From: a virus | Length of the DNA: 48,563 nucleotides | Reading direction: 5' to 3' (one strand) | IMG/VR virus record: IMGVR_UViG_3300005996_000002 | Span: 1 to 48,563 of that record | Part shown: one piece after another, positions 46,622 through 48,508 of the stretch | Numbering within the stretch: position 1 is the first letter of the stretch | Layout: the number at the start of each line of letters is the position of its first letter | Made by a program: the position numbers and the translations under genes | The notes under the pieces: model-generated | The model's input: only the letters and a program-made list of their open reading frames with translations | Database searches by the model: none | What the model was told of the DNA's origin: nothing

Positions 46622-46804
46622 CTATGGAGCGCCACGATCAAGCCAGCATTTGACGGCAGCGGCAACCGGACCGGGAACGCTGTCATTGGTCACATACCGC
46701 CATATTTGTGTGCGGTCGATGCCAAGATGCTGAGCGAGCGCGGATTGCCACCCGCGCTCGCCAAACAGTCGCATACCGGCCTCTTTCAGTTCTTCACCTG
46801 TCAT
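46622..46804 (-). CDS. Small HTH DNA-binding protein coupled to the Ro60 gene
   Basis: 60 aa. QSALAQHLGIDRTQIWRYVTN is an HTH. The start overlaps the 3' end of the TROVE gene by 11 nt. Confidence 0.65.
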   Translation of the reverse strand: MTGEELKEAGMRLFGERGWQSALAQHLGIDRTQIWRYVTNDSVPGPVAAAVKCWLDRGAP

Positions 46805-48095
46805 TTTCGAACTCGGTAATGAACCGGATCACCGATTCCGAGAACCCGTCGATGTGGGTCCAACGACCATAGCCGACGCCATTTCGGCTCGACGCCACAT
46901 TAATCATGTAGGGTCGGTCAGCGACAGGATCCGGAACGCGGTCATGGGACTGCTCATCGGTGATGACGATCAAGCGATCATGCTTGACCTCCCGGTTGAT
47001 TGCCTCAACAGCCGCGCCAAGATAGGTGCCACCATGGGGCTGTGACCGGACAACCGCATCAACGCCAGCCATTCCGCGACGGGGCGGCACTTCGACCACC
47101 TGATGCGAAAACGTGAAGACGCGAACATCACCGTTGATGACCGACGCCAGAGCCGCAGCAGCATCCATGCGCGTCATGTCGGACTTGGCAGACAGTCGCT
47201 CGCCCATTGATCCGGACACGTCCACGAGGATGGCTGTCACCCCCGACAGTCGCGGACCCGACGCAACAGCTTCACAAAGCGCCTGATCAATGACCGGCTC
47301 CAACTGAGGGCAGGCACGGGCGGCGGCGACATAGCGGAAGGGGAACACCAGATCGGCACCCTTGCGGGCAACGATGGCATCCTTGATCAGAGCCATGTCG
47401 CACCCGGCATCGACCATATTGCGCAGGTTGCGCAGCACGGCGAGATAACCAAGCTTGCCTTCTCGGATCAGACGCTCGAACGTCTCGCGCTTATCCGCGC
47501 CGCCCGACAGCCCGACTTCCCAAGTGTCAGGGGTTACCAGCGAGCGTTCAGCAACGCGCTTGAACAGTGCTTCCTGCTCGGCATCCTTCGGCTTCGGATG
47601 GGTGAGAAACAGCACGTCGCGAAGGCGCACCGGTCCGTCACGATCATACTTCGCAAGCTGGTATTCCGAGAACTTCCCGAACGCATGAGCGAGCCCAAGC
47701 TTCATCTGCTTGGACAGGGGGCGCTTTCCATCCCTCCAGTAGATCGACACCAGTTCTGCCATTTCGTCGGCGCGGCGGATCGTCTGGGCAACCGTATCAG
47801 CCACACCAGCCCCGCCACGGCGGATCATGTCGGTGAGCAACAGCAGAGGAACATGCCGCAGCCCATGGACGTTGCGGGCCTCGATTGCGAGAGCCGAGAC
47901 GGTTTCGGCGTTGCACTGCGCAGCGGATTCGATGATGCGATCAGCAATGGACTTGCCGTCCTCATAGAATTCCTTTTCCCAGAGGAGGCAGGAAAGCACC
48001 GACCGGCGCAATGCCTGGTCAGGTGAAATGCGCTTTGCGGGCGCGCCCTCATGGGTGTATTCTCGGGGGATTGCAGAGGCGGTATTCAGGCGCAT
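46794..48095 (-). CDS. rsr: Ro60-related protein (TROVE domain plus vWA domain)
   Basis: YTHEGAPAK...LSCLLWEKEFYEDG (TROVE N-terminus), LRNLRNM, FPFRYVAAA, vWA MIDAS ILVDVSGSMG and LIVITDEQSH parallel the motifs of bacterial Rsr. GGAGA RBS lies 7 nt upstream of the ATG. Confidence 0.85.
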   Translation of the reverse strand: MRLNTASAIPREYTHEGAPAKRISPDQALRRSVLSCLLWEKEFYEDGKSIADRIIESAAQCNAETVSALAIEARNVHGLRHVPLLLLTDMIRRGGAGVADTVAQTIRRADEMAELVSIYWRDGKRPLSKQMKLGLAHAFGKFSEYQLAKYDRDGPVRLRDVLFLTHPKPKDAEQEALFKRVAERSLVTPDTWEVGLSGGADKRETFERLIREGKLGYLAVLRNLRNMVDAGCDMALIKDAIVARKGADLVFPFRYVAAARACPQLEPVIDQALCEAVASGPRLSGVTAILVDVSGSMGERLSAKSDMTRMDAAAALASVINGDVRVFTFSHQVVEVPPRRGMAGVDAVVRSQPHGGTYLGAAVEAINREVKHDRLIVITDEQSHDRVPDPVADRPYMINVASSRNGVGYGRWTHIDGFSESVIRFITEFENDR

Positions 48096-48122
48096 GATCT
48101 ATCTCCAGATAGCGCCGAATGG

Positions 48123-48275
48123 ATAAAACTGCATGGCGGGAACAGGCGCGCCCGGATATTATGCGCTCTACCAACTGAGCTACATCCGGCTTGCGCCGAA
48201 CGACTGGACTCGAACCAGCGACCTCATCCTTAGCATGGAAGTAACCGACCGCTACACCACGCCATGCAGTTTCAA
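48123..48275 (-). ncRNA. Y-RNA-like / tRNA-mimicking structured RNA (YrlA-type candidate)
   Basis: A 13-bp perfect closing helix (48260-48272 with 48126-48138) extends to 15 bp. Inside it are a T-arm GCUGG-UUCGAGU-CCAGU (48203-48219), a canonical D-arm UAGCUCAGUUGGUAGAGC (48165-48182) closed by CCGGAU/AUCCGG, and a second D-like arm plus an anticodon-like arm. It lies immediately 5' of the Ro60 gene on the same strand. Confidence 0.7.
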
Positions 48276-48508
48276 ACCATTCGGGAACAAGCGGCAACGG
48301 GATGGTTTCATAGCAAGAAGTACCCGTAACCTTCACCACGATTGGCATGCTCTGCTTAGCACATACGTTGCAGATTGCAACACAAGTTTTTCACATTTTG
48401 TGGTAAGAGCGCCGTGGCCCCGCCGGGTCGCGGCGCTCATAATGCGTTTTAGGCTGAGGGGCGCGTTCCGGGTTTCGCAATATAATCAATGCGGGGTTTG
48501 GGAGGCTG

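What the first reader, a model, noticed from the sequence alone, without database searches (positions are those of the whole stretch)
46622..48310. Phage-borne Ro60 (TROVE+vWA) gene with an adjacent tRNA-mimicking RNA and a translationally coupled HTH gene
The right end of the genome carries a minus-strand three-part module, opposite in strand to the late and lysis genes:
- A structured tRNA-like RNA (about 48123-48275, possibly extending to 48310).
- A 433-aa TROVE+vWA protein (48095-46794) with a good RBS.
- A 60-aa HTH protein whose start overlaps the TROVE stop.

In bacteria, Rsr (Ro60) binds Y RNAs that are encoded next to it and mimic tRNAs. That part is established (Wolin-lab work on Rsr/YrlA). 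Here the module sits in a temperate phage at a typical moron position beside att, with no rtcB/rtcA RNA-repair partners, and with a dedicated HTH gene. The protein is also about 100 aa shorter than the Ro60 orthologues I recall. What a Ro60 RNP does for a phage or lysogen is not known. Candidate roles are RNA quality control during induction, tRNA-fragment handling, or protection against or provocation of host tRNA-targeting defences.
Basis: partly seen in the sequence, partly recalled or inferred. Interest (0 to 1): 0.8.

Follow-up and report, generated by a model that had tools for sequence, protein, structure and literature searches.

The report
Phage Ro60–Y RNA cassette with regulator
A temperate phage of an alphaproteobacterium carries a complete, already-known type of Ro60 protein plus tRNA-mimicking Y RNA module; the only fresh detail is a small DNA-binding protein that always travels with it and probably switches it off.

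Summary
On the minus strand there is a YrlA-type Y RNA (core 48113-48289, with a 5' leader reaching about 48346), a 433-aa TROVE+vWA protein (46794-48095), and a 60-aa four-helix HTH protein (46622-46804) whose ATG overlaps the TROVE stop.

- **Protein:** its model matches only Ro60 structures at the top of the PDB search. The closest is phiRo60 of Thermus phage phiLo.
- **RNA:** it has the permuted tRNA-like layout of YrlA. Across 74 distinct relatives, 50 of 53 base pairs show compensatory changes.
- **Prior knowledge:** phage Ro60 with adjacent Y RNAs is published (Chen 2014: 22 phages; Hu 2025: structure, Y RNA and PNPase binding). This is a new member of a known kind.
- **HTH partner:** a search that started from the HTH found a TROVE gene directly upstream in 47 of 49 alphaproteobacterial genome loci. 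In cellular copies RtcB or Hen1 often follows.
- **Operator:** a TGCA-N3-TGCA palindrome over the -35 occurs upstream in 14 of 15 loci that carry the HTH and in 0 of 39 that lack it. I did not find this link in the papers I could reach.

The phage copy looks like the Y RNA, rsr and regulator core of a cellular RNA-repair operon, without the ligase. What it does for the phage is still inferred.

The parts
48367..48381 (-). Palindrome GTTGCA-atc-TGCAAC (core TGCA-N3-TGCA). It overlaps the putative -35 TTGCAA (48375-48380). Proposed operator of the HTH protein.
   Evidence: Invariant in close relatives and unique in the window. A TGCA-N3-TGCA palindrome lies upstream of TROVE in 14/15 HTH-bearing loci and 0/39 HTH-lacking loci. 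In genome loci it sits 15-100 nt upstream of Y RNA copies.
48352..48357 (-). Putative weak -10 (AAGCAG), 17 nt after the -35. The predicted transcription start is near 48345.
   Evidence: Inference from aligned relatives, which have GATAGA, GACAGA or CATATG at this position. Hoeflea locus L053 has a clean TTGCAA-17-TATATA. The consensus scan did not call a promoter here.
48293..48346 (-). Conserved 5' leader: GCCAAUCGUGGUGAAGG... with hairpin GGUUACGGG (48323-48331) / CCCGUUGCC (48293-48301).
   Evidence: The 15-mer GCCAATCGTGGTGAA is exact in L010-L014 and nearly so in L015, L052 and L053. The hairpin pairs covary. Function unknown.
48113..48289 (-). YrlA-type Y RNA core:
- closing stem CCCGAAUGG (48277-48285) / CCAUUCGG (48115-48122)
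- second and third helices
- V arm 48221-48242
- T arm 48203-48219
- closed acceptor-like hairpin 48183-48202
- D arm 48165-48180
   Evidence: Rfam YrlA 31.3 bits; RNAalifold structure; model R1 172.9 bits; covariation.
48103..48106 (-). Ribosome-binding site GGAG for the Ro60 gene. It lies 8 nt after the end of the Y RNA closing stem.
   Evidence: Read from the sequence. GGAG/GGAGA is conserved in relatives.
46794..48095 (-). rsr-like gene: 433-aa Ro60 orthologue (TROVE HEAT-repeat ring plus vWA domain with MIDAS residues D292, S294, S296, T357, D380).
   Evidence: - Pfam and PHROG 850 'RNA-binding protein' at 172 bits.
- PDB 9kop/9l5y, E=7e-38 with a profile.
- AlphaFold2 pLDDT 86.3.
- Foldseek: the top 13 hits are all Ro60.
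- The MIDAS residues are invariant in the alignment.
46622..46804 (-). 60-aa four-helix HTH protein (XRE/Cro-like). Its start overlaps the rsr stop. Proposed repressor of the cassette.
   Evidence: - ORF.
- Weak HTH profile hits, all below cutoffs; PHROG 3626.
- AlphaFold2 pLDDT 96.7.
- Fold neighbours are 434 Cro, HipB and C-proteins, but none is significant.
- Linked to TROVE in 47/49 loci found from the HTH alone.
46576..46605 (.). GC-rich hairpin between the HTH gene and the convergent plus-strand gene 46110-46502. Likely a shared terminator.
   Evidence: Called as a plus-strand terminator. On the minus strand it has no U tract.
86..1153 (-). Context: tyrosine integrase. In the circular genome it lies directly upstream of the cassette on the same strand, so attP probably lies between them.
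   Evidence: Pfam Phage_integrase 70.2 bits. 55-nt terminal repeat. L010 has the same integrase-then-cassette order.

Best explanation
This is a temperate-phage copy of the alphaproteobacterial Rsr (Ro60)-Y RNA cassette, together with its own small XRE/Cro-type regulator.

**Shown**
- The protein is a full Ro60-fold ring with a vWA/MIDAS domain.
- The RNA just upstream on the same strand is a YrlA-type Y RNA. Two long closing helices carry a tRNA-like module in permuted order: V arm, T arm, closed acceptor stem, D arm.
- The HTH gene overlaps the rsr stop. It is an almost obligate partner of this rsr clade.

**Inferred mechanism**
1. One sigma-70-type promoter (TTGCAA, 17 nt, weak -10) starts a transcript near 48345. 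It runs through the leader, the Y RNA, rsr and the HTH gene.
2. The Y RNA is cut out of the 5' UTR. Its CGAA-containing closing stem binds the outside of the Rsr ring.
3. Its tRNA-like end recruits or gates a host partner, most likely PNPase. This redirects or damps host RNA decay and repair.
4. The HTH dimer binds the TGCA-N3-TGCA palindrome over the -35 and represses the unit. Expression stays low until some signal relieves it.

The phage carries only this core and lacks the RtcB or Hen1/Pnkp genes that follow it in cellular copies. It would therefore act through host enzymes. The benefit could be RNA quality control during induction or countering RNA-directed host defences.
For: **Protein**
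- Pfam TROVE and VWA_2 above their cutoffs.
- phiRo60 structure 9kop/9l5y: E=2.3e-27 with the single sequence and 7.3e-38 with a profile over residues 12-430.
- AlphaFold2 pLDDT 86.3. The Foldseek top 13 hits are all Ro60: phage, Xenopus, human, Deinococcus.

**RNA**
- Rfam YrlA hit on the tRNA-like core.
- Consensus structure from 8 and from 6 relatives.
- Model R1 finds 77 copies in 52 sources. All but one are on the gene strand and next to the TROVE gene.
- 50/53 pairs with compensatory change; 90.4% of cells paired.

**Regulator**
- HTH homologues overlap or follow the TROVE stop in 12 of the viral loci searched (L010-L018, L020, L025, L028).
- The HTH-first genome scan gives TROVE directly upstream in 47/49 loci.
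- Palindrome in 14/15 against 0/39 loci. The half-site flanks change symmetrically: TTGCA..TGCAA against GTGCA..TGCAC.
- In genome loci the palindromes sit 15-100 nt upstream of individual Y RNA copies.
- Confident four-helix model whose nearest folds are Cro, HipB and C-proteins.

**Cellular context**
- RtcB or Hen1 lies downstream of the HTH in Asticcacaulis and Caulobacteraceae loci.

**Function lead**
- phiRo60 binds phage Y RNAs and host PNPase and attenuates it (PMC12135203).
- Bas63 gp130, which has structural similarity to Ro60, counters the ppl defence (preprint).
Against: - No expression, processing or binding data exist for this element.
- The Rfam YrlA score is below the gathering threshold (31.3 against 69).
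- The -10 in the window is poor (AAGCAG), and the promoter scan called nothing.
- HTH profile hits are below their cutoffs. Its fold matches are not statistically significant (E >= 0.5).
- The co-occurrence of palindrome and HTH is partly confounded by shared ancestry of the loci.
- One HTH-bearing locus (L012) has a degenerate palindrome. 20 of the 49 genome loci have no exact TGCA-N3-TGCA.
- The PNPase partnership is carried over from Deinococcus, Salmonella and Thermus phage work.
Confidence: 0.75

Rival explanations
1. The cassette is a lysogenic-conversion or counter-defence module. It is expressed from the prophage and protects the lysogen or the induced phage against RNA-targeting or other host defences. 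It is not a general RNA quality-control device.
For: - It sits at the prophage edge next to host DNA in Rhizobium sp. No.120. In the window and in L010 it lies next to the integrase.
- It faces the opposite way to the late and lysis genes and has its own promoter and regulator.
- Bas63 gp130, which has structural similarity to Ro60, was reported to counter the ppl defence.
- Hu 2025 speculates that the phage sequesters PNPase against type III CRISPR.
Against: - No PADLOC hit.
- The same cassette sits in ordinary chromosomal contexts linked to RtcB or Hen1, which points to RNA repair as the ancestral role.
- No phenotype data exist.
- This is a refinement of the purpose of the best explanation, not a different mechanism.
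Confidence: 0.3
2. The RNA region is not a Y RNA. It is a degenerate or duplicated tRNA gene, or an attP/tRNA-derived remnant next to the integrase, that happens to lie upstream of the TROVE gene.
For: - The Rfam tRNA model gives a weak hit at 48201-48261 (18.5 bits).
- Annotators of related phages called tRNA-Thr, tRNA-Ser and tRNA-Gln at the equivalent places.
- The region lies between the integrase and the cassette.
Against: - ARAGORN finds no tRNA here, and the tRNA score is below the gathering score of 29.
- The arms are in permuted order: T arm, closed acceptor hairpin, then D arm, enclosed by long helices that covary.
- The element is kept next to TROVE in about 100 loci, including lytic jumbo phages and non-prophage chromosomes.
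- The annotated 'tRNAs' fall inside full-length matches to the Y RNA model.
Confidence: 0.03
3. The 60-aa protein is not a transcriptional regulator of the cassette. It could be a protein partner of Rsr made in fixed ratio through translational coupling, an antitoxin-like factor, or a phage immunity protein.
For: - The overlapping start and stop suggest coupled synthesis.
- The best Pfam hit is YdaS_toxin, a Cro-like family with toxin-antitoxin associations, at 22.2 bits.
- HipB and other antitoxins are among the fold neighbours.
Against: - The conserved palindrome over the -35 tracks the presence of the HTH and precedes individual Y RNA copies.
- No toxin-like gene is adjacent.
- The HTH also occurs in non-phage loci, so it is not a phage immunity function.
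- The two roles do not exclude each other.
Confidence: 0.12

Closest known systems
phiRo60 with Yrl1/Yrl2 of Thermus phage phiLo (Hu et al. 2025, NAR gkaf470; PDB 9KOP, 9L5Y)
   Same: - Phage-encoded TROVE+vWA ring protein. It is the best sequence and fold match to the window protein.
- The Y RNA-like genes lie in the upstream non-coding region and contain CGAA motifs.
   Different: - phiRo60 is 500 aa against 433 aa here, with about 25% identity.
- Two Y RNAs there, one here.
- No HTH partner or operator is mentioned in the parts of the paper I read (abstract, discussion, matched passages).
- This phage carries an integrase and a CI-like repressor.
YrlA-type bacterial and phage Y RNAs (Chen et al. 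2014, RNA 20:1715; Rfam RF02553)
   Same: - Encoded within 4 kb of the Ro60 gene on the same strand.
- tRNA-like domain with T and D arms and a closed acceptor stem.
- CGAA-type motif in the stem near the 5' end.
- Already reported for 22 bacteriophages.
   Different: - The window RNA scores only 31.3 bits against a gathering score of 69 on the Rfam model.
- It has longer closing helices and an extra conserved 5' leader hairpin.
- Its motif is CCCGAAUG, not GNCGAAN0-1G.
Salmonella rsr-yrlBA-rtcBA RNA repair operon under RtcR/sigma-54 (Chen 2013; Hughes et al. 2020, PMC7790460)
   Same: Rsr and Y RNAs are co-transcribed as one unit. In cellular relatives of this cassette, RtcB or Hen1 follows.
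   Different: - The Y RNA lies upstream of rsr here, not downstream.
- No rtcB or rtcA in the phage.
- The proposed control is a 60-aa XRE-like repressor at a sigma-70-type promoter, not the RtcR sigma-54 activator.
Controller (C) proteins of restriction-modification systems and phage Cro proteins
   Same: Small all-helical HTH proteins, encoded within the unit they control, that bind a short palindrome overlapping the promoter. They are the nearest folds to the HTH model.
   Different: There is no significant sequence or fold score. The regulated genes are an RNP, not a restriction system or a lysis-lysogeny switch. Binding is untested.

Membership tests
Ro60/Rsr (TROVE + vWA ring proteins) | TROVE domain detected by a curated profile | tested here: met
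   Pfam PF05731, 40.1 bits against a cutoff of 23, although only residues 186-232 align. PHROG 850 matches over residues 11-431 at 172 bits.
Ro60/Rsr (TROVE + vWA ring proteins) | C-terminal vWA domain with MIDAS residues (DxSxS, T, D) | tested here: met
   VWA_2, 34.6 bits against a cutoff of 27. The Ro60-specific vWA_Ro60 model is below its cutoff (24.1 against 27.7). D292, S294, S296, T357 and D380 are invariant in 45 homologues.
Ro60/Rsr (TROVE + vWA ring proteins) | Overall fold matches solved Ro60 rings | tested here: met
   AlphaFold2 pLDDT 86.3, pTM 0.79. The Foldseek top 13 PDB hits are all Ro60: 9kop E=1.2e-17; 1yvr TM 0.69; 2nvo TM 0.60.
Ro60/Rsr (TROVE + vWA ring proteins) | Binds a Y RNA on the outer surface and misfolded RNA ends in the central hole | not testable with these tools
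   Needs co-purification or EMSA.
YrlA-type Y RNA (Rfam RF02553) | Reaches the Rfam gathering score | tested here: not met
   31.3 bits against 69, and only model positions 23-88 match. Related phage copies reach 30-56 bits, also below the threshold.
YrlA-type Y RNA (Rfam RF02553) | Encoded within 4 kb of the Ro60 gene on the same strand (criterion of Chen 2014) | tested here: met
   The RNA ends 18 nt before the start codon, on the same strand. The same arrangement holds in nearly all of about 100 related loci.
YrlA-type Y RNA (Rfam RF02553) | tRNA-like module (T arm, closed acceptor stem, D arm) closed by a long helix, supported by covariation | tested here: met
   Structure. 50/53 pairs with compensatory change. 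T arm 99.7% and D arm 97.4% paired.
YrlA-type Y RNA (Rfam RF02553) | GNCGAAN0-1G motif near the 5' end (putative Rsr site) | tested here: inconclusive
   The window has CCCGAAUG at 48278-48285. The CGAA core and the final G are present, but the first G is a C (motif).
YrlA-type Y RNA (Rfam RF02553) | Bound by Rsr; carries tRNA-type modifications | not testable with these tools
   Needs experiments.
Rsr-RtcB/RtcA RNA repair operon | RNA ligase or cyclase genes in the same unit | tested here: not met
   No RtcB or Hen1 match anywhere in the window (tblastn, E<=1). RtcA was not searched. Cellular relatives do have RtcB or Hen1 after the HTH.
XRE/Cro-type HTH transcription regulators | HTH profile above a curated cutoff | tested here: not met
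   Best hit YdaS_toxin, 22.2 bits against 30. The other HTH models score below their cutoffs. No significant NCBIfam hit (best E=0.049, far below cutoffs).
XRE/Cro-type HTH transcription regulators | Compact helical HTH fold | tested here: inconclusive
   Confident four-helix model, pLDDT 96.7. The neighbours are 434 Cro, HipB, C.AhdI, SinR and ImmR at TM 0.55-0.70, but all have E >= 0.5.
XRE/Cro-type HTH transcription regulators | A cognate palindromic operator at the regulated promoter | tested here: met
   TGCA-N3-TGCA occurs in 14/15 HTH-bearing loci and 0/39 HTH-lacking loci, with symmetric half-site variation. Binding itself is untested.

The most novel reading that the evidence does not exclude
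The 60-aa HTH protein and its TGCA-N3-TGCA operator are the alphaproteobacterial switch for Y RNA, Ro60 and RNA-repair operons. They would take the place that RtcR/sigma-54 holds in enterobacteria. On this reading, temperate phages have captured the switch plus the RNP but not the ligase. A lysogen or induced phage would then deploy a self-regulated Ro60-Y RNA particle that hijacks host PNPase or RtcB, for example to blunt RNA-cleaving defences.
Probability: 0.3. Interest if true: 0.6.

Novelty: new member of a known kind. Interest (0 to 1): 0.38.

Why it matters
Ro60-Y RNA particles are well studied in animals and in a few bacteria. What they do for phages is only starting to be addressed, through one structural study and one knockout screen.

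- **A tractable example.** The module is compact and sits in a temperate phage. A close relative is integrated in a named Rhizobium isolate assembly (Rhizobium sp. No.120), so lysogen RNA-seq and deletions may be feasible if that strain can be obtained.
- **A testable regulator.** The tight link between the small HTH protein, the palindrome and each Y RNA promoter gives a concrete hypothesis for how these operons are controlled in Alphaproteobacteria.
- **An annotation fix.** Several 'tRNA' genes annotated next to TROVE genes in published phage genomes appear to be pieces of Y RNAs.

Tried and rejected
**Searches that found nothing useful**
- Whole-window Rfam search at gathering thresholds: no matches. 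It even missed the real tRNA-Met, so I re-ran small regions at E-value thresholds.
- ARAGORN: no tRNA at the locus.
- PADLOC and NCBIfam: nothing significant for either protein.
- Megablast of half the window against GenBank phages: only short 74-76% identity patches, so the phage itself is not in that collection.
- The sigma-70 consensus scan called no promoter. The promoter is inferred from conservation only.

**Ideas rejected**
- The 55-nt terminal repeat as a tRNA-derived att core. It ends in CCA but has no T-arm sequence. An exact 55-mer at both contig ends fits an assembly overlap better.
- The 99-aa ORF 48049-48348 overlapping the RNA as a gene. All three codon positions are equally conserved and there is no conserved start codon.
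- The leader as an alternative pairing partner of the closing stem. Only weak complementarity by eye; not pursued.

**Technical failures**
- The first HTH alignment was too diverse for the genome scan. I repeated it with closer sequences.
- I could not obtain Sim et al. 2020, Burroughs & Aravind 2016, or the supplementary tables of Chen 2014. I therefore cannot exclude that the HTH partner has been noted before.
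Full report
**What is in the sequence.** On the minus strand at the right end of the window there are three features.
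- An ORF of 433 aa at 46794-48095, preceded by GGAG seven bases before its ATG.
- An ORF of 60 aa at 46622-46804. Its ATG lies inside the last codons of the first ORF (ATGACAGGTGA).
- About 250 nt of non-coding sequence upstream.

ARAGORN finds no tRNA there. A whole-window Rfam search at gathering thresholds finds nothing. At a permissive threshold, the YrlA family (RF02553) matches 48158-48227 at 31.3 bits (E=8.4e-5, gathering score 69). The tRNA model gives only 18.5 bits. The single-sequence fold is a long hairpin enclosing several small arms, only modestly better than shuffles (z = -2.26).

**The protein is a Ro60 orthologue.**
- Pfam gives TROVE at 40.1 bits (cutoff 23) and VWA_2 at 34.6 bits (cutoff 27). 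PHROG 850 'RNA-binding protein' covers residues 11-431.
- Among solved structures, the only significant sequence matches are 9KOP and 9L5Y: E=2.3e-27 with the single sequence and 7.3e-38 with a profile over residues 12-430. These are the crystal and cryo-EM structures of phiRo60 from Thermus phage phiLo.
- An AlphaFold2 model (pLDDT 86.3, pTM 0.79) has Ro60 chains as its 13 best PDB matches and nothing else at that level. They are phiRo60, Xenopus and human Ro60, and Deinococcus Rsr, with TM 0.57-0.69.
- The MIDAS residues D292, S294, S296, T357 and D380 are invariant in 45 homologues.
- The protein is 67 residues shorter than phiRo60 and about 70-100 shorter than the other Ro60 chains matched. 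The match nevertheless spans the whole chain.

**The RNA is a YrlA-type Y RNA.** Relatives of the protein in viral contigs (42 loci) and GenBank phages (97 records) keep similar sequence just upstream. Alignments with the closest relatives give a consensus structure. In 5'-to-3' order it has:
1. an outer closing stem, CCCGAAUGG/CCAUUCGG;
2. two further helices;
3. a V-arm hairpin, a T arm (GGUUCGAGUCC), a closed acceptor-like hairpin and a D arm (GCUCAGUUGGUAGAGC).

This is the permuted tRNA mimic that Chen et al. 2014 described for YrlA.

A covariance model built from eight sequences finds 77 copies in 52 sources. All but one are on the strand of the TROVE gene. Most lie upstream, a few downstream, with one to five copies per locus. 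The window has one copy at 48113-48289. On the 74 distinct sequences:
- 90.4% of cells form standard pairs, against 61.8% in shuffles and 37-49% when partners are slid;
- 50 of 53 pairs show compensatory changes.

That alignment was fitted to the model, which favours the structure. The margin is large, and the independent MAFFT/RNAalifold runs agree.

**Upstream signals.** In the closest relatives three blocks are invariant upstream of the Y RNA.
- A palindrome, GTTGCA-N3-TGCAAC (48367-48381), contains TTGCAA. The palindrome is unique in the window.
- After a 17-nt spacer comes a variable A-rich hexamer. It is AAGCAG here, GATAGA, GACAGA or CATATG in relatives, and a clean TATATA in one Hoeflea copy.
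- The block GCCAAUCGUGGUGAAGG..ACGG.UACUUC begins about where transcription would start. Part of it forms a hairpin with the sequence just before the closing stem, with covarying pairs.

I read this as a sigma-70-type promoter with an overlapping operator and a structured 5' leader. The consensus scan itself called no promoter, so this is inference. The Y RNA closing stem ends 8 nt before the rsr ribosome-binding site and no terminator intervenes. The Y RNA is therefore probably processed out of the rsr 5' UTR.

**The HTH protein is a dedicated partner.**
- tblastn finds homologues (34-83% identity) overlapping or following the TROVE stop in 12 of the 51 viral loci fetched by then. None is found in the Xanthomonas, Caulobacter, Brevundimonas, crAss-like or Rhizobium lytic phages.
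- I then searched 185,579 species genomes starting from the HTH alone. This gave 49 loci: 48 alphaproteobacterial and one weak Gemmatimonadales hit. A TROVE homologue lies directly upstream on the same strand in 47 of them. One to four Y RNA copies lie upstream in nearly all.
- The family is small and unannotated: 65 clusters, almost none with a Pfam hit.
- Its model is a confident four-helix bundle (pLDDT 96.7). The nearest folds are 434 Cro, HipB, R-M controller proteins, SinR and ImmR, though none is statistically significant for so small a domain.

**Operator evidence.**
- A TGCA-N3-TGCA palindrome occurs within 800 nt upstream of the TROVE gene in 14 of 15 loci that have the HTH. It occurs in none of 39 loci that lack it.
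- The flanking bases change symmetrically, TTGCA..TGCAA against GTGCA..TGCAC. That pattern is expected for a dimer site.
- In the genome loci the palindromes lie 15-100 nt upstream of individual Y RNA copies, or about 230-280 nt upstream of rsr.
- Shared ancestry inflates the association. Even so, it holds down to 34% HTH identity (L028).

**Where the cassette lives.**
- The window is a temperate phage. It has an integrase (86-1153), a CI-like HTH_3+S24 repressor, RecT, two DNA methylases, a terminase and a GH108 endolysin.
- Its ends are an exact 55-nt repeat. This most simply marks a circular assembly. In the circle the integrase is followed, on the same strand, by about 270 nt and then the cassette. 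L010 has the same order.
- In Rhizobium sp. No.120 the cassette (83% identical protein) lies at the edge of an integrated prophage, between host transporter genes and phage lysis and tail genes.
- In a Hoeflea genome it lies among ordinary host genes, with two full Y RNA copies. Both are preceded by a TTGCAA -35 and the conserved leader; the full palindrome precedes only the second.
- In Asticcacaulis and Caulobacteraceae loci the HTH gene is followed by RtcB or by Hen1.
- The window has no RtcB or Hen1.

The phage copy is therefore the Y RNA, rsr and regulator core of a cellular RNA-repair operon.

**Comparison with what is known.** Chen et al. 2014 reported YrlA-like RNAs next to TROVE genes in 254 bacteria and 22 bacteriophages. 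Iyer et al. 2021 noted TROVE proteins in some jumbo phages. Hu et al. 2025 solved phiRo60 and showed that it binds two phage Y RNAs and host PNPase and attenuates PNPase. A 2024 preprint found that Bas63 gp130, which has structural similarity to Ro60, counters the ppl defence. The module is thus a new member of a known kind. I found no mention of the HTH partner, its operator or the leader in the literature I could reach. However, two key reviews and the supplementary tables of Chen 2014 were not available.

**Verdict.** The module is ordinary in kind, but it is clean and complete, sits in a temperate phage, and carries a testable regulatory hypothesis. Interest is moderate to low (0.38).

Noticed in passing
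window 1-55 and 48509-48563: Exact 55-nt direct repeat at the two ends of the window. It most likely marks a circular assembly overlap, not att sites, so the 'ends' of this genome are arbitrary.
   Followed up: partly
window 22222-22297 (+): tRNA-Met (CAT). ARAGORN calls it, and Rfam tRNA scores 52 bits in a local search. The whole-window Rfam run at gathering thresholds missed it.
   Followed up: yes
L001 2331-2398; L005 1772-1846; L004 1134-1201: Three annotated tRNAs lie inside full-length matches to the Y RNA model: tRNA-Thr (Xanthomonas phage 10KY502B), tRNA-Ser (Brevundimonas phage Kikimora) and tRNA-Gln (Caulobacter phage CcrColossus). The matches are L001 2305-2474, L005 1750-1927 and L004 1112-1309. 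These are probably mis-annotated Y RNA fragments.
   Followed up: partly
window 48312-48346 (-) compared with 48236-48262 (-): The conserved leader (CGUGGUGAAGGUUACGGGUACUUC) resembles an internal stretch of the Y RNA (CGUGGUGUAGCGGUCGGUUACUUC). This suggests a partial duplication. Its role is unknown.
   Followed up: partly
L070 4268-5494; L079 4289-5377; L091 1104-3542: In cellular alphaproteobacterial copies, the HTH gene is followed by RtcB (Asticcacaulis) or by a Hen1 RNA-repair gene (Caulobacteraceae). In a Phenylobacterium locus (L091), an RtcB domain lies upstream of a truncated TROVE remnant.
   Followed up: partly
L020 3808-4323: In one viral contig a 171-aa ORF is inserted between the TROVE gene and the HTH gene. 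By eye it has an HNH-like motif (VDHRDGD...N). It may be a homing endonuclease.
   Followed up: no
window 48049-48348 (-): A 99-aa ORF overlaps the whole Y RNA. Conservation is uniform across codon positions and relatives share no start codon, so it is almost certainly not a gene.
   Followed up: yes
window 10293-11345 (+) and 13819-15306 (+): The phage encodes two DNA methyltransferases, an MT-A70 family enzyme and a C5-cytosine enzyme. They may give anti-restriction protection.
   Followed up: no
window 48406-48437 (-): Imperfect GC-rich hairpin (GAGCGCCGCGACCCGGCGGGGCCACGGCGCUC) between the integrase and the cassette promoter. It has no U tract. It could be an integrase terminator or part of attP.
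   Followed up: no
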